Assembly: GCA_041651155.1 (NCBI GenBank)
Contig: JBAZJU010000008.1
Location: 1,932-65,931 of the forward strand
Reading direction: 5' to 3'
From: Patescibacteria group bacterium
Lineage (GTDB): Bacteria > Patescibacteriota > Patescibacteriia > CAIXNZ01
DNA: 64,000 nucleotides
Below are positions 7,163 to 25,443 of this stretch, one piece after another. How positions within the stretch are numbered: position 1 is the stretch's first letter; each line of letters opens with the position of its first letter. The translations under genes and the position numbers were made by a program. The notes under the pieces are model-generated. The model had not been told where the DNA came from. It worked only from the letters and a program-made list of their open reading frames with translations, and searched no databases.

Positions 7163-10100
7163 TTATTTTTCATAGACCACAAAAATCGTTATCACATCCC
7201 CTTCTGTCCAGGTACCGCCCAATTTATCCACTCTGATAGCCGAGCCGTCATATTCAATCCTGTTTTCCGTATTAGTACTCCAAAAATCCTGATCGCCATA
7301 AACATTGCCGCTGACCACATAATGAACGCCATGCAAACTGGCAATTTTGTCTTTTGTGGCTTTTGCCCATGATTCTGAAAAATATGTATTTGTAACATCA
7401 TCGCTGGTTATTGTATGCCTGATTAGATCAGAAGCTAAAAATTCGTTGTCATTTGTCTTTAAATAATTTGAGGCTAAATCTCCTGTTGTTTTTAAACTTT
7501 GATCAAAAATGAATTGCGTATTAGTGGCATCCCAGATTAAATTGCCATAGTTGCTGCCCATATTGCCAAAAGATATCAAATTATAAATAGTATCGCTGCC
7601 TGAAACAGAAGAAGCCGCATTCCAAATTTTTAGAGGGTAAGTTGTGTTATTATTACTGTTAAAAAGTCCGGCAATAATTCCGTCACCGCTAGTATAATTG
7701 TTTAAAACTAATAATGAAGCCAGGCCTGAAATACCGCCTCTGCTGTTTATAACCATCTTATCAGGGTTGTCTGTTGCTCTGGCAATAATGTCTCCTAAAT
7801 TTAAAAGCTGGCTTTTATAAATAACTAGACTGTCCAAAATGCCTTTATAAAAATTACCGGACGAATCTTTGCCAATGTATAAATCAGCCGCATTATCCAG
7901 ACTGCCGGTTACACTGGTAATATTTTGGATGTATGTTAATGAACCATCATAAGCCATAGTGACATTACTGGAACGATCAAAGGCAATTAAAACATGATGC
8001 CACTTGCCATCATTTAAAGCATATCCGCCTGCTACATTTGTGCTATAAGTATTGGTGCCATCTCCGATAAAAAAACCGATTTTATTATTAGAATCAAAAT
8101 AAACTTCATAGCCGGCATCCCCGCTTCTTTTGGAAATAATCCTTTTATTTGTCTGGTCACTTGAATCTGCTTTGAGATAAAATTCCAGAGAAAAATTATC
8201 AGTGCCCATATTTAAATTAGCGCTGTCTGTCAAAGTCAGATAATCTGAAAGTCCGTTAAATCCCAAACCATAGCCATAATATCCTTTTTGCCAGGTTGTG
8301 CCTGTAATCGTAGGATCATCAGCCAGGGTAATATTTGAGGTAGTTGTCCCCTGCCCTTCGGCAAAGGCCAGGCCGACTGCCTTGCTATCATTGCTAAAAT
8401 AAACCGGATCTGCCTTATCTTTTTCATTAGTACTGGCTGGCAAGCCGATTAAACTGCCGACAGGCGAAGAAATATTGCCATCGCTCAAATTATTAGCCAC
8501 ATAAAGATTTTCAAATGCAGAATTAAAATGATTTTTGACTTCTGCAGGCGTTAAAACATCATCATAAATAGCGACACTATCAATTTCACCATCAAGTGAA
8601 GTATTTGGGCTGCCTGCTGAACCAAGATAGAATTTATCAAACCTGCTTATGTCTAAATTTGAATATGCAGTACTTAAGGCAAATTGCCCGTCACCATAAA
8701 AAGATACATTCCCTGAATCCCAGGCAATTACAACATAATGCCAGCTAGTATCCGGGATACTGCCCAGAGGAATCTTTGTGTCTCCTACCTTGAAATACAT
8801 ATCGCTCTGATTTTCTTTGGCAAACACAATTTCATTGGAAGTGCTTTCCGCCAGTCTAAAAGCATAATTATCAGCTGAGGCGGTTATATCATTAAATTTT
8901 ACCCAAAACTCAATTGAACCCTGAGTTGATGATAAGCCGGGATCTGCAAAAGACACTGAATCGCCATCAGCGCCAAATTTCATGCCATAGCCAATATAGC
9001 CTGAATTTGTCCAGTCAGCATTGCCATTGACAGTACCATTGGCATTGCCAGCCAGATCCGTGACAGTGGAACCGACAGAATCAGAAAAATCATAGGCTAA
9101 TTTTTTATTTTCATCACTATAATGCGTGTAATCCTGCGAATTTGCGCGATTTGCTAAATAAGGCATTTGATTCGGCAGATAAGTTTCAGCGCTGAATTTA
9201 ATACGCTGATAAAAATTATCCCAGGCCAGATAGCCCTCGCCTGTATTTTCATCATCGCTAGATTCAAGATAAATTGTGTGGGTTGTAATTTTGTTGCTAT
9301 GGATATTTTGCCTATTGTCATCTGCATATATTCTTTTTATTTCATCCGGGCTTAAAGCTCTATTAAAAACTTTAACTTCATCAAATTGTCCCCTGGCATA
9401 ATTGGCCGCATAATTGCCGATATTAAATGCGCCGGTCAAATTTTCCATGCCAGCATATGATGAGCTGTTGCTTTCATTGACAGTATCATCAACTTCTATT
9501 CCATTAATATATAATTTTATTCCGGCCGATGTTTTTGAACTATCATAAGTCGCAATCACATTAGCCCACTCCCCTTCATAGCTTGTTAAGGCGGTATTAA
9601 ACATTCTACCCAAATAAGTATTGGTCTGGCTTTGATCAATCAGCTGCAGATTAATCTTATCATCAGCATTAATATAAAATTTATATTCGTCATCAGCAGA
9701 ACCTGTGCCTTTGCTGGCAATTATAAAATTAGTGGCTTCATCCATTTTTATCCAGGCTGACAATGTGAAAGCCGAATCATCTGTGCCATTGCCAAAGCTT
9801 AATTTATCATCATCAGCTACTGAAAAATATTGATTAAGACCATCAAGAGTCAAAACATCATTAGCAGCACTGGCGCTGTTTTCCAATGTTCCAGTTAAAC
9901 CATTGGGGCTGCTATCATCTGAATTCCCATTAAAGCCATAATCTGCGACCAAAGAACTATCTATAATTTTTGGCACGCTCAAATTTCCGGTCATTTCACC
10001 GCCTTCAATCTGAACAAAATCTGCAGATCCCTTGCCATTCAATTTGTCAGCATTCATGGCATAAGGCGTAGCTGTAAATCTTTTTCTGGGCAAAAATACT

Positions 10101-10675
10101 TCTTCAAAAGTGCCATTAGCGTCATAATCCAATTCAACTTGCAAATAAAAACTGTCAGTGGAAAATGTTACGCCGCCATTGGAAGCGCAAGTGCCGACCC
10201 AGTTGCCGCACAACGAATTTAATTCAACTGTAAAAATGCCGTCATTCACCTGAACTTTACTGCCGCTTGTGCCTTGATTTGTGCCATCCCAATTTTCCGC
10301 CCAAAGAAGGTTTCCGCTGGTAGCTTGGCTGTATATCCTAAAACGCATATCATAAAGTCCGTCCGGCGGAGGCACTCCGTCGGCATTGGTTATTTTACCC
10401 TGATAGGTCAAAGTATCACGGATGCCTTCAGTCGCAAAAATTGTATTTCTATAAATAAAATAAAGATAGCCTATTATTAAGGCAATCTGCAGGCCGATTA
10501 CAAAAATAATCAAAAATGATTTTAAAGACCTTTTAATACTGCTAAAAAATATCCCTAAAAATTTAGGCCTGTTACCCCCAGCCCTTTTAGCTCCTCCCTG
10601 CGCTATTTTTTTATTTTTCTTTAACATAAGCAAATTAAAAGTTGCCCACGGCTGTAACAGTAACTGTTTGGGCAT
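7163..10675 (-). CDS. giant membrane-anchored surface protein with three LamG-like (concanavalin A-like lectin) domains
   Basis: 1170 aa. N-terminal TM. Three copies of the LamG_3-type motif (GQFDEVKVFNRALSPDEIKRIY, GEIDSVAIYDDVLTPAEVKNHF, GILDSLVIYKSQLLNLGDII), S/T/N/G-rich. The first 14 codons overlap the upstream gene; an alternative start ATG at 10627 (MLKKNKK...) avoids the overlap. Confidence 0.7.
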   Translation of the reverse strand: MPKQLLLQPWATFNLLMLKKNKKIAQGGAKRAGGNRPKFLGIFFSSIKRSLKSFLIIFVIGLQIALIIGYLYFIYRNTIFATEGIRDTLTYQGKITNADGVPPPDGLYDMRFRIYSQATSGNLLWAENWDGTNQGTSGSKVQVNDGIFTVELNSLCGNWVGTCASNGGVTFSTDSFYLQVELDYDANGTFEEVFLPRKRFTATPYAMNADKLNGKGSADFVQIEGGEMTGNLSVPKIIDSSLVADYGFNGNSDDSSPNGLTGTLENSASAANDVLTLDGLNQYFSVADDDKLSFGNGTDDSAFTLSAWIKMDEATNFIIASKGTGSADDEYKFYINADDKINLQLIDQSQTNTYLGRMFNTALTSYEGEWANVIATYDSSKTSAGIKLYINGIEVDDTVNESNSSSYAGMENLTGAFNIGNYAANYARGQFDEVKVFNRALSPDEIKRIYADDNRQNIHSNKITTHTIYLESSDDENTGEGYLAWDNFYQRIKFSAETYLPNQMPYLANRANSQDYTHYSDENKKLAYDFSDSVGSTVTDLAGNANGTVNGNADWTNSGYIGYGMKFGADGDSVSFADPGLSSTQGSIEFWVKFNDITASADNYAFRLAESTSNEIVFAKENQSDMYFKVGDTKIPLGSIPDTSWHYVVIAWDSGNVSFYGDGQFALSTAYSNLDISRFDKFYLGSAGSPNTSLDGEIDSVAIYDDVLTPAEVKNHFNSAFENLYVANNLSDGNISSPVGSLIGLPASTNEKDKADPVYFSNDSKAVGLAFAEGQGTTTSNITLADDPTITGTTWQKGYYGYGLGFNGLSDYLTLTDSANLNMGTDNFSLEFYLKADSSDQTNKRIISKRSGDAGYEVYFDSNNKIGFFIGDGTNTYSTNVAGGYALNDGKWHHVLIAFDRSSNVTMAYDGSLTYIQNITSVTGSLDNAADLYIGKDSSGNFYKGILDSLVIYKSQLLNLGDIIARATDNPDKMVINSRGGISGLASLLVLNNYTSGDGIIAGLFNSNNNTTYPLKIWNAASSVSGSDTIYNLISFGNMGSNYGNLIWDATNTQFIFDQSLKTTGDLASNYLKTNDNEFLASDLIRHTITSDDVTNTYFSESWAKATKDKIASLHGVHYVVSGNVYGDQDFWSTNTENRIEYDGSAIRVDKLGGTWTEGDVITIFVVYEK

Positions 10676-12707
10676 AAGAGCCTGCTTCTGTCGTACCAGT
10701 TATGACAGCGGCATGGCATAAGGTCGTTGAATCAGAACTGATCGGCCCTGTAGCAGAAGCAAATGATTGATCGCTGGTTAATAAAACTGAAGCTGGCATA
10801 GCTGTAGCCAATTGATTGGCTAAATTACTGCAAGCAGAGCCTGAATTATTTTGTGTAATTGTTTCACCGGCCTTTGAAGTTGAAACTCCGTATTCTTCTT
10901 CTGTAGAAACTCCTCCAATATTTGTCACTCCCACATCGCCATCAGCCACATCGCTTATTTGATTGGCGGCATTTCTCAGCATGCCATCTGCTCTAATATA
11001 GGCAGTATAGCCTAAGCTGCCATTGGTGCTAATTTGCGTATCATAATTGCAAGTGCTCAAGCCAGCAGCGCTGAAAGTGCCTAAACTGCAGTTTGCGGCT
11101 GACAATGACAGAGTTAAAGTTGCATCAACTGCGGCTGAGATATCAACTGTATCTTCCTGATCAATTATCCAATGGGTAAAATAAATTTCATTATTGCCGT
11201 CAATGTTATCCTGCCAAATGACATTGGGCAGATTGGTATTTCTTAGCACAATTTCAGGATAATCCGAAAAACTGTTGCCATTATCAGATAAATTATCTGT
11301 GCCTGCTACATCCCCCATTTTGGTCCAGCCAAGGCCTGGAGTCCATTTGCGAAAATATATTTCGTAATTATAAACGCTCACGGCTTCCCGCCAAACAATA
11401 TTCGGAAAGCCCTGAGAGCTAAGTCCTATTTTGGGATATCTTGAAGCAGTTGCCGTGTTTGAGACATTATCATGCCCCAGAGTGCCATCCATTTTTGTCC
11501 AGCCAACACCCCCAGTCCATTTAGTGAAATAAATATCTCTAGTGCCTGTGGTGGCATCATCCCAGACAACGTTGGGTATGTTTGATTGGTCAAGTTTAAA
11601 ATCAATGCTATCGGAATCGCCCAAGGTATTGGAAATATTTTCATAGCCTAAAGTGCCATCCATTTTTGTCCAGCCTGTGCCTGGCTGCCACTTGGTAAAA
11701 AATATCTCCCCATTTGCGCTTGTGACATCTCTCCAGATAATAATAGGAAAGCCTAATGAATCAAGACGCATTTTTGGCAAACCTGATGCAGATGAATTAT
11801 TGGAAACATTATCCGCGCCTGGAGTACCGTCCATTTTGGTCCAGCCAACTCCCTGAGTCCATTTCTTAAAATAAATATCACCATTTCCTGTTAAATCAAC
11901 AGACCAAGTAAGGCAAGGGTTATTTGAGGAATCAATCGCAAATTGTGCTAAATGTGAATTATTGCCGCTATCATTTGAAACATTATCAGTGCCTGGAGTA
12001 CCATCCATTTTGGTCCAGCCAACTCCAAAAGTCCATTTACGGAAATAAATCTGCGTTTTACCATTAACAGGTTCTTCCCAAGCAATATAAGGATTATTAT
12101 CATTATCTATGGCAAATTGAGTTGAGCCAGAATTTAAAGCCGTACCAGAAACATTATCAGTACCAGCCGACCCATCCATTTTTGTCCAGCAATCATCAAT
12201 CCCAGCACCGCAGACACCTGAGCCGGCACCCACTGTCCATTTTCTAAAAAAAATTTCATAATTTCCAGTGGAATTATCCAGCCAGACTAAATAAGGAGTA
12301 CCTGAATCTGTCAGTGAAAATTTTGGCAAAGTTGAGCTGCCAGAATCATTAGAAACGTTTTCTGAACCTTCACTGCCATCCATTTTTGTCCAGCAACCAT
12401 TACCTCCACATCCAGTCGCTGTCCACTTGCTAAAAAAAATATCACTATTTCCAGTAGTACTATCAATCCAAATTGCATATGTATTATTATAAGCATCAGC
12501 CATAATTTGCGGTGCGATGGATGAGCCTGTATTATTGGAAATATTTTCACTAATATCTGTCCTGTCCATATTTTTCCAAGAGGCAAAAACTTCTTTGGTA
12601 AAAATCTGGCTGGTAACAATAATTACAATACCAAAGCAAAAAAGCCCAATTTTTCCTATTTTCCATTGGTTATTTAAATTAAAATACAATGGCTTTCTTT
12701 TAGTCAC
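10635..12707 (-). CDS. secreted repeat protein: about nine ~48-aa propeller-like repeats plus the conserved C-terminal VVGNF-family domain
   Basis: 690 aa with a signal/TM N-terminus. Repeats share IYF(R/T)KWT.G.GWTKMDGT.G.DNVSN; the repeat is also visible as a ~144-bp periodicity in the DNA. The C-terminal ~170 aa is homologous to the C-termini of 12745..13791, 13845..14930 and 16616..17686 and ends AVGNF. Confidence 0.7.
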   Translation of the reverse strand: MTKRKPLYFNLNNQWKIGKIGLFCFGIVIIVTSQIFTKEVFASWKNMDRTDISENISNNTGSSIAPQIMADAYNNTYAIWIDSTTGNSDIFFSKWTATGCGGNGCWTKMDGSEGSENVSNDSGSSTLPKFSLTDSGTPYLVWLDNSTGNYEIFFRKWTVGAGSGVCGAGIDDCWTKMDGSAGTDNVSGTALNSGSTQFAIDNDNNPYIAWEEPVNGKTQIYFRKWTFGVGWTKMDGTPGTDNVSNDSGNNSHLAQFAIDSSNNPCLTWSVDLTGNGDIYFKKWTQGVGWTKMDGTPGADNVSNNSSASGLPKMRLDSLGFPIIIWRDVTSANGEIFFTKWQPGTGWTKMDGTLGYENISNTLGDSDSIDFKLDQSNIPNVVWDDATTGTRDIYFTKWTGGVGWTKMDGTLGHDNVSNTATASRYPKIGLSSQGFPNIVWREAVSVYNYEIYFRKWTPGLGWTKMGDVAGTDNLSDNGNSFSDYPEIVLRNTNLPNVIWQDNIDGNNEIYFTHWIIDQEDTVDISAAVDATLTLSLSAANCSLGTFSAAGLSTCNYDTQISTNGSLGYTAYIRADGMLRNAANQISDVADGDVGVTNIGGVSTEEEYGVSTSKAGETITQNNSGSACSNLANQLATAMPASVLLTSDQSFASATGPISSDSTTLCHAAVITGTTEAGSYAQTVTVTAVGNF

Positions 12708-12744
12708 TAAATTCTTTCAATAAATTATTCTTAAAATTTATACT

Positions 12745-13791
12745 CTAAAAATTACCTACGACTGTAATCGTCACTGTCTGAGCATAAGCGCCTGCCGGGG
12801 TTGTGCCAGTGATCACTGCCGCATGGCATAAGGTAGTTGAATCAGCACTCACGGGCGCTGAAGAAGTGGCAAATGACTGGTCACTTGTTGTTAAAGCTGA
12901 ACCTGGCATGGCAGTTGTCAACTGACCATCCAAAGTTGCACAATCAGAGCCTGAATCATTGTCTACTATCGTAGATGATGCATTTGTTGTAGAAATGCCA
13001 TATTCTTCTTCTGTAGAAACTCCGCCGCTATTGGTTACACCCACGGTCGCATCTGCCACATTGGTTATGCTATTTGTGGCATTTCGCAAATTGCCGTCTG
13101 CTTTAATATACGCTGTATAGCCTGAATCAGCATTGGTGCTTACTTCTGTATCATAACTGCAGGTGCTTAAACCTGTTGTGCTTAATGTGCCTAAAGTGCA
13201 GGTAGAGGTAGATAAGGACAGAGTTAATGTTGGCTCAACTGTAGCCGAGATATTTACCTGGTTTAAGCCAACAACTATGGCTGCGCCGCCGCTATCTTCC
13301 TGGGTATCAGCATTGGTATCGCTGCCGCCCCAGGCATTATCAGCGCCCAAATCCCAGGTTGTAATAGCAAAAGAAGCTGAACCGGCAGTAGGATTGGTGA
13401 TATGGTTATTTGAAATCGTAATAGTAATTTGGCCTGAAACCTGATCGCCTTCTGTTGTAATCGGAATTTGCAAATTTTGTCCACTCACACTGGCTGTCCC
13501 CTTGGTGATATCTGTGGTTGTATGAGTTTGAGTAACTGCCACATCACCGTTAACTACGTTAGAAATGACATAGCCTGCCGGAAAAGTAATTTTAATGCCA
13601 TCCCCGCTATTTATATTGCCGTCAGGATTAAAAATAATCGTGGCATTTGTCGCTGCGCTGGCAGTGTAATTTGATAAAGTAATGCTCACCACGCTTATAC
13701 CGCCGGCTAAGGCTGGCAAAGCAGTAAAAGTGTTTAATACCATCAATAAAACCGCCAGTACAATTGAAAAAAATTTAAAATGTTTGTTCAT
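12745..13791 (-). CDS. secreted surface protein, paralog family (variable N-domain plus conserved C-terminal domain ending VVGNF)
   Basis: 348 aa. Signal peptide MNKHFKFFSIVLAVLLMVLNTFTALPALA. TWDLGADNAWGG motif. The C-terminal ~170 aa is nearly identical to the paralogs, with conserved Cys pairs. Confidence 0.7.
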   Translation of the reverse strand: MNKHFKFFSIVLAVLLMVLNTFTALPALAGGISVVSITLSNYTASAATNATIIFNPDGNINSGDGIKITFPAGYVISNVVNGDVAVTQTHTTTDITKGTASVSGQNLQIPITTEGDQVSGQITITISNNHITNPTAGSASFAITTWDLGADNAWGGSDTNADTQEDSGGAAIVVGLNQVNISATVEPTLTLSLSTSTCTLGTLSTTGLSTCSYDTEVSTNADSGYTAYIKADGNLRNATNSITNVADATVGVTNSGGVSTEEEYGISTTNASSTIVDNDSGSDCATLDGQLTTAMPGSALTTSDQSFATSSAPVSADSTTLCHAAVITGTTPAGAYAQTVTITVVGNF

Positions 13792-13844
13792 AACTTTTTT
13801 TATAAATTAATTTTATTCAATCTTTATTTTAATTATTTATTTTT

Positions 13845-14930
13845 TTAAAAATTTCCGACAACAGTGACAGTCACAACCTGGGCATAAGCGCCTGCAGGTG
13901 TTGTGCCCATAATAACAGCTGCATGGCACAAAGTCGTTGAATCAGCGCTCACTGGACTTGTCGCTGTGGCAAAAGACTGATCGCTGGTTGATAAGGCTGA
14001 ACCGGGCATCGCAGTTGTTAATTGGCCATCTAAAGTTGCGCAATCTGTGCCTGAATCATTTTCCACTATTGTAGAAGATGCATTAGTCGTGGAAATGCCA
14101 TATTCTTCTTCTGTAGAAACTCCGCCGCTATTAGTTACGCCCACGGTCGCATCAGCCACATTGGTTATGCTATTTGTGGCATTTCTCAAATTGCCGTCTG
14201 CTTTAATATAAGCTGTATAGCCTGAATCAGCGTTTGTGCTAACCTCAGTATCATAGCTGCAGGTGCTTAAACCGGTTGTGCTTAATGTACCCAAAGCGCA
14301 GGTCGTGCCTGACAAGGTTAAAGTTAAGGTTGGATCAACTGTGCCTGAAATATTAACCTGGTTTGTGCCAATCACTACCGCTGCATAAGAACTGTCTAAT
14401 ATTGTATCAGCATCAGCTCCAGTTCCCCCCCAAGCCTCATCAGCGCCTAAATCCCAAATTCCAAGTGTAATTTTCTGAGTGCCTGAAGATGAAGGCGTAG
14501 TAATATGGCTGTTGGCAATTGTAATCGTCACTGCTCCGCTGGGCGTATCACTTTCTGTGGTAATGGGAATTGCCAGTACATTTTGGAGGCCAATGCCACC
14601 TACGATTGCTGTTCCTTTAGTGATATCTGTGGCAGTATGCGCCTGAGTTACTGTCACGTCTCCATTGACAACTGGGGCAGTGGAAAGATCAGAATTATCA
14701 AACTGAACCGTTATCCCATCTCCAGTATTAATATTACCGTCTGGATCAAAGCTAACCGTTGTTGTGTTAATAGCTGTATTGACAGCTGAGACATTGTTCC
14801 CGCTGGCATCGTGATAAGTAACAGAAATATCGGCCAAACCGGCATTAGCGTAATTTTGGGCAAGACCACTTCCTCCTAAAATGATTACCATTGCCATAAA
14901 AATGTAAAAAAGCTTCGTTTTCTTAATCAT
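13845..14930 (-). CDS. secreted surface protein, paralog family (conserved C-terminal domain ending VVGNF)
   Basis: 361 aa. Signal peptide. IWDLGADEAWGG motif. The 3' half is near-identical at DNA level to 16616..17686. Confidence 0.7.
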   Translation of the reverse strand: MIKKTKLFYIFMAMVIILGGSGLAQNYANAGLADISVTYHDASGNNVSAVNTAINTTTVSFDPDGNINTGDGITVQFDNSDLSTAPVVNGDVTVTQAHTATDITKGTAIVGGIGLQNVLAIPITTESDTPSGAVTITIANSHITTPSSSGTQKITLGIWDLGADEAWGGTGADADTILDSSYAAVVIGTNQVNISGTVDPTLTLTLSGTTCALGTLSTTGLSTCSYDTEVSTNADSGYTAYIKADGNLRNATNSITNVADATVGVTNSGGVSTEEEYGISTTNASSTIVENDSGTDCATLDGQLTTAMPGSALSTSDQSFATATSPVSADSTTLCHAAVIMGTTPAGAYAQVVTVTVVGNF

Positions 14931-15110
14931 AGATTAATTATTAATTATTTATTAAAATTATTAGATATTTTATTTTATAATCTCATATCTTAGCCAAATT
15001 TTAACTCATCCATATCACAATTATATCATAAATTCAGCCGTAAAAAAAGTTAGCCTGTGAATAAAATTTTAACCTGCTGAAATAAAATTCCGTCATAATG
15101 ATGGCTTATC

Positions 15111-15473
15111 TTAATCTTTTTTATACTTTAATACACGTAAGTACGTATCAACAAATCTTAAAATTATAACCAAGATTAATGCTAAAATTACCATGATTAA
15201 CGCCATCAGCCCCCAACTGGCTGCTTGATCATAAATTGTCTGAACTTCCCCGGTGACTTCTTTTTGTTGCAAACCCAATGATTTTTCAAAAAAATATTGG
15301 TATTTATTTTCTTTGGTCATTACGGACTGGGTTGGCTGAGTGGAAATATTTTTATTTAATTCTGTTTCTGGCACAATGCCGTAAACATTCACATCCGTCT
15401 GCCCATGACTTACGGATAAATAAAAAAAATTTATCAATATTGCCGCTAAACCAATTAAAATAATTTTACGCAT
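15111..15473 (-). CDS. small secreted protein with a C-terminal TM anchor and basic tail
   Basis: 120 aa. Signal peptide MRKIILIGLAAILINFFYLSVSHG. C-terminal TM followed by RFVDTYLRVLKYKKD. Confidence 0.45.
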   Translation of the reverse strand: MRKIILIGLAAILINFFYLSVSHGQTDVNVYGIVPETELNKNISTQPTQSVMTKENKYQYFFEKSLGLQQKEVTGEVQTIYDQAASWGLMALIMVILALILVIILRFVDTYLRVLKYKKD

Positions 15474-15496
15474 ATAATAACTCCCCAGCTTGATAT

Positions 15497-15531
15497 AAGA
15501 AGAGGCTTTTAAGTATTAAAAGCCTCTTCTT
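15497..15531. terminator. 14-bp perfect-stem hairpin (aagaagaggctttt / aaaagcctcttctt) between the DUF916-like gene and the 120-aa gene
   Basis: Read directly from the sequence. T-rich flanks on both sides. Confidence 0.55.
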
Positions 15532-15563
15532 TTCAAAGTCCTTATAAATTGGGATTAATACTT

Positions 15564-16538
15564 TTATTTCTTAGCTTTGCCGTATTTCTTCAAAATCCAT
15601 TTGTTATATTTCTTGATAGCAAAATACAAGATTACAACAATAATGACTATTATTAACAAATTAACAATAATTATATTCCATGGGATTACCATGAATGTAG
15701 TTGAGGCTGTTAAAGTATTGCCTGCTGTGCCATAAGCCAAGCTTAAATCAGCGGTATAACTGCCAAAAGCAAAATTTTCTTTTTCCTGCATATATTTGCC
15801 CCAGAATGTGGTTGCGCCTACTGCATTAGGATCTTTTAACCAGCCAGCATCAAATTTTCTGATTTGGTCAGGCAGGACATTGCCACCTGCTTCATTGACA
15901 GCAACTTTGCCGGCAACAGCTCCCCACATGTTTTTAATCGTAATTGTTCCCATTGGCTTTAAATGGACATTACCGTCATTTTTTACTCTCACGCTAAAAT
16001 CTACTGGCAGTGAACTAAAAGTTTTACCAGCTGTGCTGAATTCTGCAATTTGCGCGCTTTCTTTAATTTCACCTGCAATTCTAACCAAAATCAAAGTGCC
16101 AATACGGCTGGCAATAGATACTTGAGAACCTGCATTGGCAGCTTCCGGAGGCGCAGTGCTCAAAAATATAGCAGCATAATGACCGCCTGGCCCGGCATAA
16201 TTAGGTACGATAATTGAAAAAGGCACTTCCACTGTAGAACCTGCTGGAACAGTGATACTCTGGAATGGAAACTTTATCCAGGTAGCTAAATCCACGTCTT
16301 CACCTGTAAAAGATGGTTCTCCTGCTTCACCGCCTGCCACAAATCGTTCTGCTGATAAGTAATAAGTGGCTGCTGCCGCACCTTCATTACGAACCTTAAT
16401 TGATTGATTTATCACATCGCCTTTCGCAGCGTCAATCTCAATTATAGGCGGTGATACTGTAACAGCAGAACTTGCTAAAGGCAGAAGTAAGCCGACAGCA
16501 AGCAGGGCAATTACCAATGAGAAAATTTTTGTTTTCAT
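15564..16538 (-). CDS. DUF916-like cell-surface protein: signal peptide, beta-rich ectodomain, C-terminal TM anchor with KK-rich tail
   Basis: The ORF track extends to 16559. The likely start is the second Met (MKTKIFSLVIALLAVGLLLPLASSA, a good signal peptide), preceded by GGAGGGTGAGGGG. The C-terminus is IIIVNLLIIVIIVVILYFAIKKYNKWILKKYGKAKK. The architecture matches DUF916/CscA-type proteins of WxL clusters; the assignment is by architecture, not by a strong motif. Confidence 0.55.
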   Translation of the reverse strand: MKTKIFSLVIALLAVGLLLPLASSAVTVSPPIIEIDAAKGDVINQSIKVRNEGAAAATYYLSAERFVAGGEAGEPSFTGEDVDLATWIKFPFQSITVPAGSTVEVPFSIIVPNYAGPGGHYAAIFLSTAPPEAANAGSQVSIASRIGTLILVRIAGEIKESAQIAEFSTAGKTFSSLPVDFSVRVKNDGNVHLKPMGTITIKNMWGAVAGKVAVNEAGGNVLPDQIRKFDAGWLKDPNAVGATTFWGKYMQEKENFAFGSYTADLSLAYGTAGNTLTASTTFMVIPWNIIIVNLLIIVIIVVILYFAIKKYNKWILKKYGKAKK

Positions 16539-16615
16539 ATTTTTCCCCTCACCCTCCATTGCTTAAAGCAGCGGAGGGCAAATTTAATTTTTATAATTTA
16601 TTTTAATTATTTATT

Positions 16616-17686
16616 TTAAAAATTACCAACAACTGTAATTGTCACAACCTGAGCATAAGCGCCTGCAGGTGTTGTGCCCATAATAACAGCGGCATGACAC
16701 AAAGTCGTTGAATCAGCGCTCACTGGACTTGTCGCTGTGGCAAAAGACTGATCGCTGGTTGATAAGGCTGAACCCGGCATCGCAGTTGTTAATTGGCCAG
16801 CTAAAGTTGCGCAATCAGAGCCTGAATCATTGTCCACTATTGTAGAAGATGCATTTGTTGTGGAAATACCGTATTCTTCTTCTGTGGAAACACCGCCGCT
16901 ATTAGCTACGCCCACGGTTGCGTCAGCAACATTGGTTATGCTATTTGTGGCATTTCTCAAATTGCCGTCTGCTTTAATATAAGCTGTATAGCCTGAATCA
17001 GCGTTTGTGCTAACCTCAGTATCATAGCTGCAGGTGCTTAAACCGGTTGTGCTTAATGTACCCAAAGCGCAGGTCGTGCCTGACAAGGTTAAAGTTAAGG
17101 TTGGATCAACTGTGCCTGAAATATTAACCTGGTTTGTGCCAATCACTACTGCCGCATAAGAACCATCTAAGACTGAATCAGCATTTTCGCCAGTGCCGCC
17201 AAAAGCATTGTCAGCGCCTAAATCATAGAGAACAATTGTGATTTTATAGGTGCCTGATGTAGTAGGGGTTGTAATGTGACTATTGGAAATAGTAACCGTC
17301 ACTGCGCCACTCGGCGTGTCGCTTTGGGTGGTAATTGGGATTAAAACGCTTTGGATAACTCGAACCGCAGTACCTTTTATTATATCTGTGCCGCTATTTG
17401 CCTGGGTGATAGCAACATCACCGTTAACAACGCTAGCAACGCCAAAATTATCTTGGAATTGAATCTCTAAAGCATCTCCTGTGCTGAGATTGCCATCGGG
17501 ATCAAAGCTAATTGTGGTTGTGTTAACAACCGTATTAACTGCTGAGATATTATTTCCGCTGCCATCATGCAATGTAACGGAAACTGCGCTTAACCCGGCG
17601 TTAGCGACATTTTCTGCAAAAAACCCTCCCCCTAAAATTGTCACTATTGCCATAAAAATGTAAAATAGTTTTGCTTTCTTTACCAT
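16616..17686 (-). CDS. secreted surface protein, paralog family (conserved C-terminal domain ending VVGNF)
   Basis: 356 aa. Signal peptide. The N-domain resembles that of 13845..14930. The C-terminal domain is near-identical to the paralogs. Confidence 0.7.
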   Translation of the reverse strand: MVKKAKLFYIFMAIVTILGGGFFAENVANAGLSAVSVTLHDGSGNNISAVNTVVNTTTISFDPDGNLSTGDALEIQFQDNFGVASVVNGDVAITQANSGTDIIKGTAVRVIQSVLIPITTQSDTPSGAVTVTISNSHITTPTTSGTYKITIVLYDLGADNAFGGTGENADSVLDGSYAAVVIGTNQVNISGTVDPTLTLTLSGTTCALGTLSTTGLSTCSYDTEVSTNADSGYTAYIKADGNLRNATNSITNVADATVGVANSGGVSTEEEYGISTTNASSTIVDNDSGSDCATLAGQLTTAMPGSALSTSDQSFATATSPVSADSTTLCHAAVIMGTTPAGAYAQVVTITVVGNF

Positions 17687-17890
17687 AGTTTAATCTTCAT
17701 TTGTTAATTAAAAAATACTAAAAGATTTAGTATTTAGATATTTTAAATATTTATTTTCCTGACTATTTCTTAAAATAAAATTCAAAGCTAAATCCATTGC
17801 TAAAATTTAGATTAAATAATTATTATATGTTTTTATTATAACATAAAAACATATAACTAACTATGATTTTAACCTGTGGAAAAGTCATGC

Positions 17891-18601
17891 CTAAAAAACT
17901 GGAATAAATTCATAAGTCAAAGTAGCGCCATAATTGCCAGCGTTTGTTTCAGGAGCAATATTCACAATTACCGAAACAGTAAAATCAGTCTGGTAAGAAA
18001 AACTTAATGACTGGGCAATAATATCACCGTCGTTATAAGCAAATTTATTTGTTGTATTATAATTTGGCGTTGCCCAACCAATCCCGCCCAAAGGGTCTGA
18101 GCCGATTAAAGGCACAGAATTACTCACTAAATTAATGCCAAATTGTTCAGTCCCCGGCTCAGAATCTGCAGCGACACTGCCTATTGGAGTGACGGCATGT
18201 TCCGAACTATGCAAAGATTCACCGATTATTTTTATAGTATAACCAGCTTTGGAATTTGTGTATGCTGAAAAAGTATGGCTGGAATAGGCTGTTGACGACG
18301 GAGAAAGCTCTCCAAAATTTAAACTGACTAACTGAACGCTAAATCCAATTGTCGGCTCAGCGCCAATGCCTGAAAAGCTTGGCTTTTCTTTAAAATTCAT
18401 GCTTTGGGAATTGGCGCCAGCTTGATCTGTGAAATTTGAGTCAATTGCATAATTTTCTGAAGACAAAGCGCCTCCGCCTGAACTTAAATTATCCAGCCAG
18501 ACTTTATAATTATTGCTGGACATGGCGGCTATTGCTTGTTTGCCAAAAGCCGCAAAACCAAACAATAAAAAAAGTATTAAAATTTTATTTAACTTGACCA
18601 T
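17891..18601 (-). CDS. secreted protein with a WxL-like C-terminal end (ends AGNYGATLTYEFIPVF)
   Basis: 236 aa. Signal peptide MVKLNKILILFLLFGFAAFGKQAIA. VWLDNL motif near the N-terminus. The C-terminal pattern parallels the AGAYAQTVTITVVGNF end of the paralog family. Confidence 0.5.
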   Translation of the reverse strand: MVKLNKILILFLLFGFAAFGKQAIAAMSSNNYKVWLDNLSSGGGALSSENYAIDSNFTDQAGANSQSMNFKEKPSFSGIGAEPTIGFSVQLVSLNFGELSPSSTAYSSHTFSAYTNSKAGYTIKIIGESLHSSEHAVTPIGSVAADSEPGTEQFGINLVSNSVPLIGSDPLGGIGWATPNYNTTNKFAYNDGDIIAQSLSFSYQTDFTVSVIVNIAPETNAGNYGATLTYEFIPVF

Positions 18602-18619
18602 GTTTATTTTTAGATTTTT

Positions 18620-20830
18620 CTATTTTTTTGCGCCCTTCTTTATTATCTTCTTTCTTAAAGCCAACAAAGCTGCAAAAAATAACAGAATTATTAAGAATAC
18701 AAGCCAAAACCACCAGGGAATTTTTAATTCTTGTCTTGGCACGAATTTTTCTTTTAGCGTTAGAGAAACCTGTTCCGATGGTTCTGAATTAAGCCCATTT
18801 ATACTGGCAATAGCGTATAAAGTATAACGGCCCGGCTCTAAAATTTTTTCTAAACTAATCATCCATAATCCCTGTTCGCTTGCTTTAGTTGAAACAATTA
18901 TTTCAGGCGAGGCTGCTAAGTGCAGAGTAACAAGGGAATTTTTCTCAGCCCGTCCGGTTATCATTAGCACATTTTTTACAAAAAACCTGCCGATCTGTTC
19001 AGGCATTATAATATGATCGATAAAGGGAGGAGCCACTGCTTTAATAGCAGGCTGGATTAAATTATATGTTGCCGGTTCTTTGTTTATGACTGTAAAATTT
19101 TGCAAATCAATATAAGCTTCAATGGCATTGCCGGCATTGTCAACTGCACGTAAAGATAATATTTTGCCAAGTTTGTCTGATTCATTTAAAACATAAGGGC
19201 TTTGCGCCTTTTGCCACTCTCCATTATCAATTTTCATTTCATAATAAGCAACCCCGGAACTCTTATCCAAAGCTGAAAAATAGAGTTTATATTGCTTGCT
19301 GCCGTCTGCTAAAATTCCTGTCTCAATGCTGGGTTTAAAAAATTCCGGCGGAGAGGTATCAATCTTAACTTGATAATGCGCTGTCGGACCCCAGCCATCA
19401 ATATATTTGACTTTAAGGTGAAAATACCAAAACCCATCAGCAATATTACTAAAAGCAAAAAGCTTATCCTGGCTGGAATAATAGCCAATGCTTGGATCAG
19501 CTAATGGATTTTGATCTAAATTAAAAGTATAACCTAGGCCTTCATCGGCAACTTGCCAGGCAAACTGAGGTTGATTATTGGCATACCATTGATTTTGCTC
19601 AGGATGGCTTGGCGAACTAATTATTGGCGATGTTTTATTGGACGTTTCTGTAAAATTTTGTTCTGCGCATACAGGCAATGGGCAACTAAACGACCCTCCT
19701 CCGCAAGGAGGACACTGGCCACCAAAAACAGTAACTCTAACGCTTAAATTAGAGCTCAAAGGATTAGTAATATTATTATCAAGAGCTTTAAAAACAGCAT
19801 AGTAAATCCCAGAATTTGTTGGTGCCCAACTAAATCTTGAAGTTGAAGTTATACCCGTAATAATTGGGTTTAAAGTTGCATTTTCCAGAGGTTCCAGGCT
19901 CAAAACAATATTATCATTATCTGGATCAGTGGCAGTTATATTAAATGTCAAAGTTTCGCCGGCATTAACTGTTTTTTCCGGGATTGGATCAAAGACAGGC
20001 TGATGGTTTTGTGGCGGAACTGGTTCTGAAACTCCAATACTTACTGTTAACGTAGAACTTTTTGATCCCAAGTCACTATCATCTACTGCGACAAATGAAG
20101 TTGTAAATACTCCCTTGCTTTGGGGTGTCCAATTGAAATCACCATAAACAATACTGGCGTTATTTGTAATGTTGGCCATCGTGGCATCTGCAGGAATATT
20201 CCAATTTAAATTGACAATATCATCATCAGGATCAGCGGCTTGAAGATGAAAACTTACTGTCTCCCCCAAATTAATTTGCTTATTGCCAACCGGCTGAAAA
20301 ACCGGCGCCAAATTTGCCGGAGGTGGTGGTGGCGGCGCGCCAATGACATTAATTGTAATTCCCTGGCAACCGCTTAAATCAATTTGTTCTGTTTGATCCA
20401 CTGCAATTAAATGCGAACCGGCAGCAAAGGAAATTGTTGAGGAGCCAACCTGAGAAGCTTTAAAAATCAAAGTGCCGAACAATGAATTAGAATTCACGGA
20501 ATCAACCAAAACAAAGCCACCGACATTAATATGATTGCTGGAATTATTCAATTCCCTGCCAGGACTTTGATTTGGCCAAGCAGTACCCAAACTAAAATCG
20601 TTAATGGAAATGACATTGCCGCTTGTATAATCCAAAATTGCCCTGACTGTATTTAAAGCAGCGCCATTAGGCTCAACCATAATATCAACATAAATGGTAT
20701 CTCCCACATAATAATCTGTTTTAGCTGAAATTAGCCTCATTATAGCACTCCCAGCTGCTTGGACTGGAATAATAGGCAAAATAAAACTAACTAGCAATAA
20801 AGATAGAATGATTTTTATTATTTTTTTCAT
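18620..20830 (-). CDS. membrane-anchored surface protein: N-terminal cohesin-like domain, Pro-rich linker, cadherin-like/Ig repeats, C-terminal TM with basic tail
   Basis: The ORF track extends to 20896. The probable start is MKKIIKIILSLLLVSFILPIIPVQA (signal peptide) at 20830. The cohesin-like segment is AIMRLISAKTDYYVGDTIYVDIMVEPNGAALNTVRAILDYTSGNVISINDF...GTLIFKASQVGSSTISF. PPPPPP linker. Repeats with ADPDDDIV / TDPDNDNIV. C-terminal WWFWLVFLIILLFFAALLALRKKIIKKGAKK. Confidence 0.6.
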   Translation of the reverse strand: MKKIIKIILSLLLVSFILPIIPVQAAGSAIMRLISAKTDYYVGDTIYVDIMVEPNGAALNTVRAILDYTSGNVISINDFSLGTAWPNQSPGRELNNSSNHINVGGFVLVDSVNSNSLFGTLIFKASQVGSSTISFAAGSHLIAVDQTEQIDLSGCQGITINVIGAPPPPPPANLAPVFQPVGNKQINLGETVSFHLQAADPDDDIVNLNWNIPADATMANITNNASIVYGDFNWTPQSKGVFTTSFVAVDDSDLGSKSSTLTVSIGVSEPVPPQNHQPVFDPIPEKTVNAGETLTFNITATDPDNDNIVLSLEPLENATLNPIITGITSTSRFSWAPTNSGIYYAVFKALDNNITNPLSSNLSVRVTVFGGQCPPCGGGSFSCPLPVCAEQNFTETSNKTSPIISSPSHPEQNQWYANNQPQFAWQVADEGLGYTFNLDQNPLADPSIGYYSSQDKLFAFSNIADGFWYFHLKVKYIDGWGPTAHYQVKIDTSPPEFFKPSIETGILADGSKQYKLYFSALDKSSGVAYYEMKIDNGEWQKAQSPYVLNESDKLGKILSLRAVDNAGNAIEAYIDLQNFTVINKEPATYNLIQPAIKAVAPPFIDHIIMPEQIGRFFVKNVLMITGRAEKNSLVTLHLAASPEIIVSTKASEQGLWMISLEKILEPGRYTLYAIASINGLNSEPSEQVSLTLKEKFVPRQELKIPWWFWLVFLIILLFFAALLALRKKIIKKGAKK

Positions 20831-20837
20831 AGATTGA

Positions 20838-20928
20838 AATAAGTAATAAGAAATAAGAAATATGGAATTGGAATTATTTAAATAATCATTTTTCACTTTT
20901 CCTTATTACCTATTTCCTATTACCTATT
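20838..20928. repeat. inverted arrays of AATAAG / CCTATT hexamers between the cohesin-like and dockerin genes
   Basis: aataagtaataagaaataagaaata ... ccttattacctatttcctattacctatt. Read directly from the sequence. Confidence 0.5.
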
Positions 20929-20931
20929 ATT

Positions 20932-22388: not shown

Positions 22389-22398
22389 ATTCGCATTA

Positions 22399-25434: not shown

Positions 25435-25443
25435 TTTGATGTT

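What the first reader, a model, noticed from the sequence alone, without database searches (positions are those of the whole stretch)
12745..17686. Near-identical DNA in the 3' halves of three paralogous surface genes suggests ongoing gene conversion or cassette-type variation
The 3' ~500 bp of 12745..13791, 13845..14930 and 16616..17686 are almost base-for-base identical. For example, ...gagcataagcgcctgcaggtgttgtgcccataataacagc... is shared by 13845.. and 16616... The 5' halves diverge. Synonymous sites would not be conserved to this degree without recent duplication or concerted evolution. The arrangement is conserved anchoring module plus variable exposed module. That arrangement is typical of phase- or antigenically variable or host-interaction surface proteins.
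Basis: seen in the sequence. Interest (0 to 1): 0.55.

Follow-up and report, generated by a model that had tools for sequence, protein, structure and literature searches.

The report
Pilus subunit genes sharing a converted tail
Three neighbouring genes in an uncultured ultra-small (CPR/Patescibacteria) bacterium most likely encode subunits of the recently described Pam pilus, and the part that would join subunits together has been copied between two of them recently, which is ordinary concerted evolution and not an antigen-switching system.

Summary
Genes B (13845-14930) and C (16616-17686), both on the minus strand, are 95% identical over their last ~530 nt. This includes a 221-nt perfect run. 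Their 5' halves are only 71% identical. Gene A (12745-13791) is only 84% identical to B or C in that region, with synonymous divergence (dS) of about 0.83, so it is not near-identical. A fourth gene, D (10635-12707), carries the same C-terminal domain at 70-72% identity.

The locus looks like a divergent Pam-type pilus operon of CPR bacteria. It has a PamT-like tip subunit, several pilins built as head + linker + C-terminal Ig-like domain, one membrane-anchored chaperone-like protein, and a small candidate anchor. The shared 3' module is therefore probably the polymerisation unit (donor strand plus acceptor domain), not an anchoring module.

Gene conversion or recombination between B and C is well supported:
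- dS is 0.16 in the C-terminal domain against 1.15 in the N-terminal domain.
- The breakpoint is sharp (p<=5e-4).
- The two domains give different trees.
- The differences between A, B and C are patchy.
- An independent assembly breaks exactly inside the repeat.

I found none of the hallmarks of cassette or phase variation that I looked for. Verdict: a new member of a known kind, of moderate interest.

The parts
12745..13791 (-). Pilin A (348 aa): signal peptide, N-terminal beta-sandwich head of the 'DLG' class, linker 'NQVNISATVEP', and a C-terminal Pam-pilin-like domain (linker + C-terminal domain = 12745-13263).
   Evidence: ORF. NCBIfam CPR_Pam_pilin_C, E 1.5e-8, residues 195-348 covering model positions 3-148. 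C-terminal domain is 83.7% nt identical to B and C, dS 0.82-0.84.
13845..14930 (-). Pilin B (361 aa), same architecture (linker + C-terminal domain = 13845-14363).
   Evidence: ORF. AF2 model pLDDT 89.3 with two beta domains; the linker, residues 188-201, is modelled as unpaired coil. NCBIfam CPR_Pam_pilin_C, E 2.6e-7.
16616..17686 (-). Pilin C (356 aa), same architecture (linker + C-terminal domain = 16616-17134). It occupies the first pilin position after PamT.
   Evidence: ORF. NCBIfam CPR_Pam_pilin_C, E 1.9e-7. Synteny.
13848..14392 (-). Homogenised tract, copy in B. It covers the end of the N-domain, the whole linker (donor strand) and the C-terminal domain. The perfect 221-nt run is 14158-14378.
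   Evidence: Maximum chi-squared breakpoint at B 14392 / C 17163 (chi2 121, p<=5e-4). Differences are 30.2% on the 5' side and 4.8% on the 3' side. Mismatch map.
16619..17163 (-). Homogenised tract, copy in C. The perfect 221-nt run is 16929-17149.
   Evidence: The independent contig L014 ends at 17009, 140 nt into this run.
10635..12707 (-). Pilin D (690 aa): a head of ~57-aa (171-nt) repeats that looks like a beta-propeller or BNR domain, followed by the same linker and C-terminal domain (about 10635-11153).
   Evidence: Repeat families D4 and D5. Weak BNR_4 and beta_prop_Msarc hits, plus CPR_Pam_pilin_C at E 3.3e-5 over residues 538-690. C-terminal domain 70-72% nt identical to A, B and C.
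17891..18601 (-). PamT-like single-domain tip subunit (236 aa). It has the C-terminal domain but no linker or donor strand.
   Evidence: NCBIfam CPR_pilus_PamT, 163.7 bits (below the 240 cut-off). CPR_Pam_pilin_C, 138.8 bits (above the 55 cut-off). The alignment shows the linker is absent.
15564..16559 (-). Chaperone-like protein (331-aa ORF; the NCBI start gives 324 aa): signal peptide, two Ig-like domains and a C-terminal transmembrane helix.
   Evidence: AF2 pLDDT 88.3 with helix 287-323. Foldseek top hits are WxLIP 9i25_C and 9i1y (E 8.6e-12), then the chaperone-usher chaperones CsuC, CfaA, DraB, Caf1M and FimC. 22 of 58 family members hit Pfam WxLIP_PGBD.
15111..15473 (-). Small protein (120 aa): signal peptide, mature N-terminus 'TDVNVYGIVPE' that resembles the pilin linker, and a C-terminal transmembrane helix. 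It is a candidate fibre terminator or membrane anchor (inferred).
   Evidence: The motif [TS]x[VI][ND][VI]x[GA]xVP is conserved in 7 orthologues. The gene position between chaperone and pilins is conserved.
18620..22248 (-). Conserved upstream neighbours: a 758-aa PKD/Big-domain protein with a C-terminal transmembrane helix (18620-20896) and a 438-aa fn3 protein with a sub-threshold dockerin hit (20932-22248). Their role in the fibre is unknown.
   Evidence: Domain hits. Synteny.
7163..10675 (-). Conserved downstream neighbour: a 1170-aa protein with three Laminin_G_3 domains. Its start overlaps the end of D. It has no pilin C-terminal domain.
   Evidence: Laminin_G_3, E 2e-65. Synteny.

Best explanation
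The window comes from a Patescibacteria (CPR) genome assembled from a metagenome. The region from about 7.2 to 22.2 kb is best read as a divergent Pam-type pilus operon.

What the parts are:
- A, B, C and D are secreted pilins. [quoted passage not shown]
- By analogy with the cryo-EM structures of PamA and PamB, the linker of one subunit fills the open groove of the neighbour's C-terminal domain (donor-strand exchange).
- The 236-aa PamT-like protein, which has no linker, would cap the tip.
- The 331-aa two-Ig-domain protein with a transmembrane helix would act as the membrane-anchored chaperone.
- The 120-aa protein, with a linker-like N-terminus and a transmembrane helix, may terminate and anchor the fibre.

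What the shared 3' DNA is. It encodes the polymerisation module, meaning donor strand plus acceptor domain. It is conserved at the protein level by purifying selection (dN/dS about 0.06-0.08). At the DNA level it is also homogenised from time to time by recombination between paralogues. A recent event of about 0.5 kb made B and C 95% identical from just upstream of the linker to near the stop codon. Shorter and older exchanges link A with both B and C. A 7-aa insertion shared by every C-terminal domain of this lineage shows that D took part earlier.

Shown here: the sequence patterns, domain homology, predicted folds, synteny and recombination signals. Inferred: donor-strand assembly in this organism, the anchor role of the 120-aa protein, and the idea that homogenisation keeps subunits compatible with each other and with the single chaperone.
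For: Identity of the system:
- NCBIfam CPR_Pam_pilin_C matches the full model in A, B, C and D (E 1.5e-8 to 3.3e-5) and exceeds its cut-off in the 236-aa protein. That protein also matches CPR_pilus_PamT at E 4.8e-48.
- 43 of 45 family members hit CPR_Pam_pilin_C.
- AF2 of B gives two beta domains joined by an unpaired linker.
- The top 50 Foldseek hits are two-domain surface adhesins and integrin ectodomains. They include chaperone-usher tip adhesins (CfaE, FocH, CupB6) and a Saf pilus subunit complex (5y9h).
- The chaperone-like model hits WxLIP and chaperone-usher chaperones and has a C-terminal transmembrane helix. This matches PamC and PamD as described in bioRxiv 10.64898/2026.03.03.709456.
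- The C-terminal domain has conserved cysteines.
- Homologues with a source name are all Patescibacteria.
- 3033 representative clusters match the profile. Many match only the C-terminal domain, placed at the extreme C-terminus behind other heads.

Recombination:
- B-C dS is 0.16 in the C-terminal domain and 1.15-1.30 in the N-terminal domain.
- Breakpoint p<=5e-4, with a 221-nt perfect run.
- B's N-domain groups with L003 p1 (94% bootstrap; dS 0.80). B's C-domain groups with C (98%; dS 0.16, against 1.51 to L003 p1).
- C-terminal domains cluster by genome across unrelated head classes. In L006, five of them cluster at 100% bootstrap.
- A lineage-specific 7-aa insertion is present in all C-terminal domains of the window, L003 and L005.
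- The A=B and A=C patches are non-random (runs test p~0.001).

Not an artefact:
- Independent k141 contigs L014 and L013 are 100% identical to window 26601-17009 and 14298-6745.
- Each stops 140 nt into the repeat.
Against: - The pilin hits to CPR_Pam_pilin_C (24-35 bits) are below the curated 55-bit cut-off, and the PamT hit is below its equivalog cut-off.
- There is no direct comparison with the PamA or PamB structures. They were not among the listed PDB hits, and no multimer modelling was possible.
- I found no RbmA-like PamR orthologue and no ATP-synthase neighbourhood, and there is only one chaperone.
- The direction and mechanism of the B-C exchange cannot be told apart. It could be intragenomic conversion of the C-terminal domain, or replacement of B's N-domain by DNA from a related strain.
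- In L011 and L012 the C-terminal domains of co-resident pilins are highly diverged (55-66% nt). Homogenisation is therefore not required for function, which weakens the compatibility argument.
Confidence: 0.75

Rival explanations
1. Mosaic by N-domain replacement. B began as a recent duplicate of C (or the reverse). Its 5' half was then replaced by homologous recombination with DNA from a related strain. On this reading the shared C-terminal domain is the remnant of the duplication, not the product of conversion.
For: B's N-domain is closer to the p1 pilin of another genome (L003; dS 0.80, 94% bootstrap) than to C (dS 1.15). Relatives carry other pilin classes at the B and A positions, so the content of these slots does turn over.
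Against: B's N-domain is still far from L003 p1 (dS 0.80), so no close donor is known. The A=B and A=C patches inside the C-terminal domain and the insertion shared by all four C-terminal domains show repeated intragenomic exchange. A single replacement does not explain these.
Confidence: 0.15
2. Programmed cassette-type, antigenic or phase variation. One expressed surface gene is diversified from donor copies, or is switched on and off.
For: The layout of variable exposed half plus conserved half, in tandem paralogues with recombination between them, resembles bab/sab in Helicobacter pylori and pilE/pilS in Neisseria (my own knowledge).
Against: - All copies are intact, with start codons and signal peptides.
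- The conserved part, not the variable part, is what is exchanged.
- There are no silent truncated cassettes, no long simple repeats, no inverted repeats around an intergenic (promoter) region and no recombinase next to the locus.
- The N-domain classes are old and shared between genomes.
- Two independent assemblies give identical sequence.
Confidence: 0.05
3. No recombination. The similarity only reflects strong purifying selection and codon preference on an essential domain.
For: For A against B and C, dS is 0.82-0.84 and dN/dS is about 0.06. Most of that similarity does track protein constraint.
Against: This cannot give a 221-nt perfect run or dS 0.16 for B-C, when the same domain has dS 0.8 against A and 1.0-1.7 against orthologues. 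It also cannot explain trees that group C-terminal domains by genome.
Confidence: 0.03
4. Assembly artefact. The identity arose from collapsed or chimeric assembly of strain variants.
For: The source is a short-read metagenome assembly. Repeats longer than k are hard to resolve. One relative (L005) shows a suspicious shortcut across the repeat.
Against: - An independent assembly reproduces both flanks at 100% and breaks k-1 = 140 nt into each copy. That is the behaviour expected of a true two-copy repeat.
- The copies still differ at 24 sites over the 531 nt from the start of the identical run (26 sites 3' of the statistical breakpoint).
- The gene order matches that of relatives.
Confidence: 0.02

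Closest known systems
Pam pilus of Candidatus Mycosynbacter amalyticus (PamA, PamB, PamE, PamT, PamC/D, PamR; Troman et al., bioRxiv 10.64898/2026.03.03.709456; NCBIfam NF058579 and NF058581)
   Same: - Restricted to CPR bacteria.
[quoted passage not shown]
- Linker and C-terminal domain are the most conserved parts.
- A single-domain PamT-like tip subunit without a linker.
- A chaperone with a C-terminal transmembrane helix.
- No usher and no ATPase.
- Several pilin paralogues in one operon.
   Different: - Pilin hits fall below the NCBIfam cut-offs.
- The host lineage is different. Named relatives are Buchanan-, Falkow-, Uhr- and Parcubacteria, whereas the preprint reports Pam pilins mainly in Saccharimonadia and Microgenomatia.
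- There is one chaperone, not two.
- No RbmA-like PamR was found; a 120-aa protein with a linker-like strand and a transmembrane helix is the candidate substitute.
- Some pilins have large beta-propeller heads.
- The neighbours are a helicase, DciA and MreB, not ATP synthase.
- Concerted evolution of the C-terminal domain is not mentioned in the preprint.
WxL gene clusters of Firmicutes (small WxL, large WxL, WxLIP = DUF916-DUF3324-TM; Hassan et al. 2023, PMC10599100; PDB 9i25, 9i1y)
   Same: The chaperone-like protein is the best structural match to WxLIP (E 8.6e-12), and 22 of 58 relatives hit Pfam WxLIP_PGBD. The cluster logic is parallel: a small protein with only the C-terminal domain, large proteins with a head plus that domain, and a membrane-anchored two-Ig protein predicted to insert a strand into its partner.
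   Different: The pilin C-terminal domain gives no HMMER match to Pfam WxL or to any PDB chain. WxL proteins are described as peptidoglycan-bound surface proteins, not as fibres.
Classical chaperone-usher pili (Pap, Fim, Csu, CFA/I)
   Same: The subunit has an incomplete Ig fold, assembly would be by donor-strand exchange, and the chaperone has a two-Ig-domain fold (for the Pam parallel).
   Different: There is no outer membrane and no usher. The chaperone is membrane-anchored. The donor strand is an internal linker between two domains, not an N-terminal extension.
Gene conversion among paralogous surface-protein genes, for example Helicobacter pylori babA/babB/babC and Neisseria pilE/pilS (my own knowledge, not tested here)
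   Same: Paralogues have near-identical conserved segments, divergent exposed segments, and tracts of non-reciprocal exchange.
   Different: In this locus the exchanged segment is the conserved assembly module, every copy is a complete gene, and nothing indicates switching of the expressed variant.

Membership tests
Pam pilus system (CPR) | [quoted passage not shown] | tested here: inconclusive
   A, B, C and D match the whole 148-position model at E 1.5e-8 to 3.3e-5, but at 24-35 bits against a cut-off of 55. The 236-aa protein scores 138.8 bits, above the cut-off. 43 of 45 relatives match.
Pam pilus system (CPR) | Two-domain pilin: beta-sandwich N-terminal domain, single linker strand, C-terminal domain, and a Sec signal peptide | tested here: met
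   AF2 of B: pLDDT 89.3, N-terminal helix, two beta domains, and linker residues 188-201 left unpaired. The alignment shows that the linker motif is conserved.
Pam pilus system (CPR) | PamT: single-domain tip pilin lacking the donor strand | tested here: met
   NF058579, E 4.8e-48, full length (163.7 bits; the equivalog cut-off of 240 is not reached). The linker is absent in the alignment.
Pam pilus system (CPR) | PapD/FimC-like chaperone with a C-terminal transmembrane helix | tested here: met
   The AF2 model has two Ig-like domains plus helix 287-323. Foldseek hits include CsuC, CfaA, DraB, Caf1M and FimC, and WxLIP.
Pam pilus system (CPR) | PamR: RbmA-like anchor with two FnIII domains, an N-terminal strand and a C-terminal transmembrane helix | tested here: not met
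   No such protein was recognised. A 120-aa protein with a linker-like N-terminus and a transmembrane helix is a possible functional substitute.
Pam pilus system (CPR) | Assembly into filaments by donor-strand exchange | not testable with these tools
   This needs multimer modelling or cryo-EM. Only the unpaired linker in the monomer model and the analogy to searches are available.
Gene conversion / concerted evolution between paralogues | Local drop in synonymous divergence with a sharp boundary | tested here: met
   B-C dS is 0.16 against 1.15-1.30. Breakpoint chi2 121, p<=5e-4. A 221-nt identical run.
Gene conversion / concerted evolution between paralogues | Phylogenetic incongruence: the converted part groups by genome, the rest by orthologue | tested here: met
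   Neighbour-joining trees with bootstrap, the shared 7-aa insertion and the dS table. No maximum-likelihood topology test was run.
Cassette-type antigenic variation (pilE/pilS, vls, msp2 type) | One expression site plus silent, truncated or promoterless donor cassettes carrying the variable part | tested here: not met
   All four genes are complete, with start codons and signal peptides. The segment exchanged is the conserved one. No further copies were found in the 9-22 kb region searched for repeats.
Phase variation | Simple-sequence tracts in the coding region or promoter, or an invertible promoter with a recombinase | tested here: not met
   Only short AT-rich low-complexity repeats in the intergenic DNA. 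None of the three weak inverted repeats found brackets an intergenic (promoter) region. No recombinase beside the locus.
WxL cluster (Firmicutes) | WxL domain (dual Trp-x-Leu motif, Pfam PF13731) on the secreted proteins | tested here: not met
   No Pfam WxL hit at E<=1 and no PDB sequence hit at E<=10 for the C-terminal domain profile. The C-termini end in VVGNF.
WxL cluster (Firmicutes) | WxLIP (DUF916-DUF3324-TM) partner protein | tested here: met
   Foldseek top hits are 9i25_C and 9i1y. 22 of 58 relatives hit WxLIP_PGBD; the window protein itself reaches only E 0.079.
Classical chaperone-usher pathway | Outer-membrane usher | tested here: not met
   No usher-like protein appears among the locus ORFs scanned with Pfam and NCBIfam.

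The most novel reading that the evidence does not exclude
Recurrent gene conversion may keep the polymerisation module (donor strand plus acceptor groove) interchangeable among pilin paralogues. That would let very different and ancient heads (beta-sandwich, beta-propeller, Kelch-like) be threaded into one chaperone-assembled fibre and be reshuffled between lineages. A second possibility is that this CPR system and the WxL clusters of Firmicutes are one ancient family of usher-less, donor-strand surface assemblies in bacteria without an outer membrane.
Probability: 0.3. Interest if true: 0.65.

Novelty: new member of a known kind. Interest (0 to 1): 0.38.

Why it matters
- It assigns a likely function to a block of roughly ten 'hypothetical' genes in an uncultured Patescibacteria genome.
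- It suggests that Pam-type pili extend into lineages beyond those stressed in the 2026 preprint. The profile matches 3033 representative protein clusters.
- It shows that the subunit-joining module and the exposed heads of these pilins have separate evolutionary histories. This matters for predicting which subunits can co-assemble and for how host-contact structures of episymbiotic bacteria diversify.
- As a practical point, the near-identical module breaks short-read assemblies inside these operons, which can produce false deletions.

Tried and rejected
- Pfam gave nothing for the pilins.
- PDB sequence searches with the full-length profile and the C-terminal-domain profile gave nothing useful.
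- Pfam at E<=1 on the C-terminal domains gave no WxL hit.
With the single protein it found only one GTDB locus, so relatives were collected through the look-up of encoding contigs instead.
- The PamT homologue search gave only unnamed CPR proteins and no link to WxL.
- The promoter and terminator scan was uninformative: 59 promoter-like sites against about 40 expected, and terminators at the chance level.
- A Biopython bootstrap run timed out and was replaced by my own distance and neighbour-joining code.
- I considered and rejected recent whole-gene duplication followed by fast head divergence, because dS in the N-terminal domain is 1.15.
- I also rejected selection alone, assembly collapse, and programmed cassette or phase variation; see the rival explanations.

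Full report
**1. The observation**

The three ORFs are real, and all lie on the minus strand: A 12745-13791 (348 aa), B 13845-14930 (361 aa) and C 16616-17686 (356 aa). I built codon alignments and computed Nei-Gojobori estimates.

| Pair | Region | nt identity | dS | dN |
|---|---|---|---|---|
| B-C | last 172 codons | 95.3% | 0.16 | 0.013 |
| B-C | N-terminal half | 71-72% | 1.15-1.30 | about 0.2 |
| A-B, A-C | last 172 codons | 83.7% | 0.82-0.84 | 0.05 |
| A-B, A-C | N-terminal half | 55-56% | >1.7 | about 0.5 |

- 'Almost base-for-base identical' therefore holds for B-C only.
- A fourth paralogue was missed. D (10635-12707, 690 aa) has the same C-terminal domain at 70-72% nt identity.

**2. 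Where the similarity starts and whether it is chance**

- A maximum chi-squared scan of B against C puts the breakpoint at B 14392 / C 17163. Differences are 158/523 (30.2%) on the 5' side and 26/545 (4.8%) on the 3' side. Chi2 is 121 and p<=5e-4 from 2000 permutations.
- A perfect 221-nt run follows directly: B 14158-14378 = C 16929-17149. Within the domain alone its permutation p is 2e-4.
- The run begins in the codons for 'YAAVVIGTNQVNISGT'. The tract therefore covers the inter-domain linker and the whole C-terminal domain (CTD).
- The 24 differences between B and C downstream of the 221-nt identical run are not scattered. Eight consecutive sites have A=B, then five have A=C, then two A=B, then five A=C. 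A runs test gives p~0.001.
- This patchwork shows that short exchanges have involved all three genes.

**3. What the genes are**

Pfam finds nothing for A, B and C. NCBIfam gives the following:

| Protein | Model | Result |
|---|---|---|
| A, B, C, D (C-terminal ~150 aa) | CPR_Pam_pilin_C (NF058581) | full model, E 1.5e-8 to 3.3e-5, 24-35 bits, cut-off 55 |
| 236-aa ORF 17891-18601 | CPR_Pam_pilin_C | 138.8 bits, above cut-off |
| 236-aa ORF 17891-18601 | CPR_pilus_PamT (NF058579) | 163.7 bits, cut-off 240 |

- 43 of 45 homologues of B also match the pilin-C model.
- These models derive from the Pam pilus of Ca. Mycosynbacter amalyticus (bioRxiv 10.64898/2026.03.03.709456).
- In that system, two-domain pilins (beta-sandwich N-terminal domain, or NTD; linker strand; truncated Ig-like CTD) polymerise by donor-strand exchange.
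- PamT is a linker-less tip subunit. PamC and PamD are PapD/FimC-like chaperones with a C-terminal transmembrane helix. The linker and CTD are the most conserved regions.

**4. Tests of that reading here**

- AF2 of B (45-sequence alignment, pLDDT 89.3) gives a signal helix and two beta domains. The segment 188-201, 'GTNQVNISGTVDPT', has no intramolecular partner and shows a dip in confidence.
- Among the top 50 Foldseek PDB hits, all two-domain surface adhesins or integrin ectodomains, are the chaperone-usher proteins CfaE/CfaB, SafD, FocH and CupB6. Their TM-scores are low.
- The alignment of CTDs with PamT-like proteins shows shared motifs (TN..GY, E.YG, T.AG.Y). It also shows that PamT lacks the linker.
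- The neighbouring 331-aa protein (15564-16559) has more than 600 homologues and is 88% identical to its closest listed orthologues, whereas the closest pilin from another genome is 77% identical to B.
- Its AF2 model (pLDDT 88.3) has two Ig-like domains and a C-terminal helix at 287-323.
- Its best PDB matches are E. faecium WxLIP (9i25_C, 9i1y; E 8.6e-12), followed by the chaperone-usher chaperones CsuC, CfaA, DraB, Caf1M and FimC.
- The 120-aa ORF (15111-15473) has a signal peptide, a conserved mature N-terminus 'TDVNVYGIVPE' and a C-terminal transmembrane helix. The N-terminus resembles the pilin linker 'QVNISGTVDP' in all seven orthologues examined.
- I infer that this protein may donate a strand to the last subunit and anchor the fibre. 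That would be the role proposed for PamR, for which I found no orthologue.

**5. Context**

- The window is a Patescibacteria MAG contig, with NCBI locus tags WC460_05685, WC460_05690 and WC460_05705.
- The gene order is conserved in at least six related genomes: fn3 protein, PKD protein, PamT, pilin, chaperone, small TM protein, pilin(s), big-head pilin(s), LamG protein.
- The number and class of pilins vary between these genomes.
- A profile search over 1.84 billion representative proteins finds 3033 clusters (1543 at E<=1e-10). Many match only the CTD, placed at their extreme C-terminus behind other heads in proteins of up to 1259 aa.

**6. Concerted evolution across genomes**

N-terminal domain tree:
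- The NTDs fall into classes that are each shared by several genomes: 'DLG', 'YVG' and an 'ANY-type'. The big-head pilins carry separate beta-propeller (BNR-like) heads, seen in several genomes in the locus tables. The paralogues are therefore old.
- B's NTD groups with the p1 pilin of locus L003 (94% bootstrap). A's NTD groups with the p1 pilins of L009, L011 and L012.

C-terminal domain tree:
- The CTDs group by genome instead. B and C pair at 98%.
- All CTDs of the window, L003 and L005 cluster together whatever their head (71%).
- Five CTDs of L006, attached to three head types, cluster at 100%.

Other evidence:
- Every CTD of the window/L003/L005 lineage has a 7-aa insertion (VGVTNSGGVSTEEEYG) that is absent elsewhere.
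- B against L003 p1 has dS 0.80 in the NTD and 1.51 in the CTD. This is the reverse of B against C.

Homogenisation is episodic. CTD pairs within other genomes:

| Pair | CTD nt identity | dS |
|---|---|---|
| L006 p3 - big660 | 88% | 0.43 |
| L001 up727 - up356 | 86% | 0.54 |
| L011 and L012 pairs | 55-66% | saturated |

**7. Artefact check**

- An independent MEGAHIT-style (k141) assembly of sample ERZ27247363 yields two relevant contigs.
- One is 100% identical to window 26601-17009. The other is 100% identical to window 14298-6745.
- Each ends exactly 140 nt (k-1) inside the C or B copy of the 221-nt run.
- That is how a de Bruijn graph assembler behaves at a true two-copy repeat. It also confirms the flanking sequences, including the B-specific sites downstream of the run.

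**8. What is not there**

- The repeat search of 9-22 kb shows no truncated or silent copies.
- There are no long simple-sequence tracts, only short AT-rich intergenic repeats.
- The repeat search reports three weak inverted repeats, and none brackets an intergenic (promoter) region.
- No site-specific recombinase lies next to the locus. The neighbours are MreB, MreC, a class II tRNA synthetase and a UvrD/PD-(D/E)XK helicase. An IS200-like gene lies about 6 kb away.
- The segment that recombines is the conserved one, not the variable one.
- Cassette-type, antigenic or phase variation is therefore not supported.

**9. Explanation and limits**

- The shared 3' DNA most likely encodes the polymerisation module of Pam-type pilins. 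It is kept similar by selection and, in this lineage, by recurrent recombination between paralogues. The B-C event is recent.
- I cannot separate intragenomic conversion of the CTD from replacement of B's head by foreign DNA. The patchy A/B/C pattern and the shared insertion favour repeated intragenomic exchange.
- Homogenisation may preserve mutual compatibility of subunits and of the single chaperone. This is an inference, and it is weakened by genomes in which co-resident CTDs are very different.
- Donor-strand assembly itself was not tested here.

**10. Novelty**

- The Pam pilus and its domain models already exist. This locus is a divergent member in another CPR lineage, with sub-threshold pilin scores, one chaperone, a small candidate anchor and beta-propeller heads.
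- Concerted evolution of the assembly module is not discussed in the preprint. It is, however, a familiar process.
- The most interesting by-product is the structural and weak sequence link between the chaperone and Firmicutes WxLIP.
- Interest is moderate.

Noticed in passing
window 15564-16559: The chaperone-like protein's best structural matches are Enterococcus faecium WxLIP (PDB 9i25_C, 9i1y), and 22 of 58 relatives hit Pfam WxLIP_PGBD (DUF916). CPR Pam-like operons and Firmicutes WxL clusters have parallel architectures. The Pam preprint does not mention WxL or DUF916. The pilin C-terminal domain itself shows no sequence match to WxL.
   Followed up: partly
window 15111-15473: A 120-aa protein with a signal peptide, a conserved linker-like mature N-terminus (TDVNVYGIVPE) and a C-terminal transmembrane helix. 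It always sits between the chaperone and the downstream pilins. It may be the fibre terminator or anchor.
   Followed up: partly
L005 1-7022: A related k141 contig has PamT, one pilin and a BNR-head pilin, with the chaperone, the small TM gene and the other pilins missing. This is either a real deletion by recombination between C-terminal domain repeats or an assembler shortcut through the repeat.
   Followed up: no
L013 and L014 (window 6745-14298 and 17009-26601): Independent contigs of one sample end exactly 140 nt inside the two copies of the 221-nt identical run. These operons will routinely fragment or mis-join in short-read assemblies.
   Followed up: yes
L006 12593-13630, L009 12467-13441, L010 12558-13586, L011 12561-13595, L012 12581-13618: A third small-pilin class, with its own C-terminal domain type ending in ...ANY/ANF, follows the small TM gene in five relatives (in L009 that small gene was not called). 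It is absent from the window and from L001, where 'DLG'-class pilins fill that slot.
   Followed up: partly
window 10635-12707: Pilin D has a head of about six 171-nt (57-aa) repeats that look like beta-propeller or BNR blades. A relative (L012) has a 929-aa Kelch-like head on the same C-terminal domain. An 8-aa Asp-rich loop insertion in the C-terminal domain is spread patchily across head classes and genomes.
   Followed up: partly
window 18620-22248: The 438-aa protein has fn3 plus a just sub-threshold Dockerin_1 hit. The adjacent 758-aa protein has PKD/Big domains, an OmpL47-type barrel and a C-terminal transmembrane helix. Both are conserved upstream of PamT in all relatives, and their role is unknown.
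   Followed up: no
window 22399-25434: A UvrD/PcrA-type helicase fused to a PD-(D/E)XK nuclease (AddA-like) is a conserved neighbour of the pilus locus in L006, L010, L011, L012 and L014. This may be plain synteny.
   Followed up: no
window 28498-29172: An IS200-like Y1 transposase domain protein lies about 6 kb from the locus.
   Followed up: no
window 1-64000: Nearly all ORFs of 120 aa or more are on the minus strand. GC skew is negative in all but one 2-kb bin (26001-28000), and no tRNA genes were found in 64 kb.
   Followed up: no
window 10635-10675: The 3' end of pilin D overlaps the predicted start of the 1170-aa LamG protein by 41 nt. The LamG start codon may be mis-called, or the two genes may be translationally coupled.
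   Followed up: no
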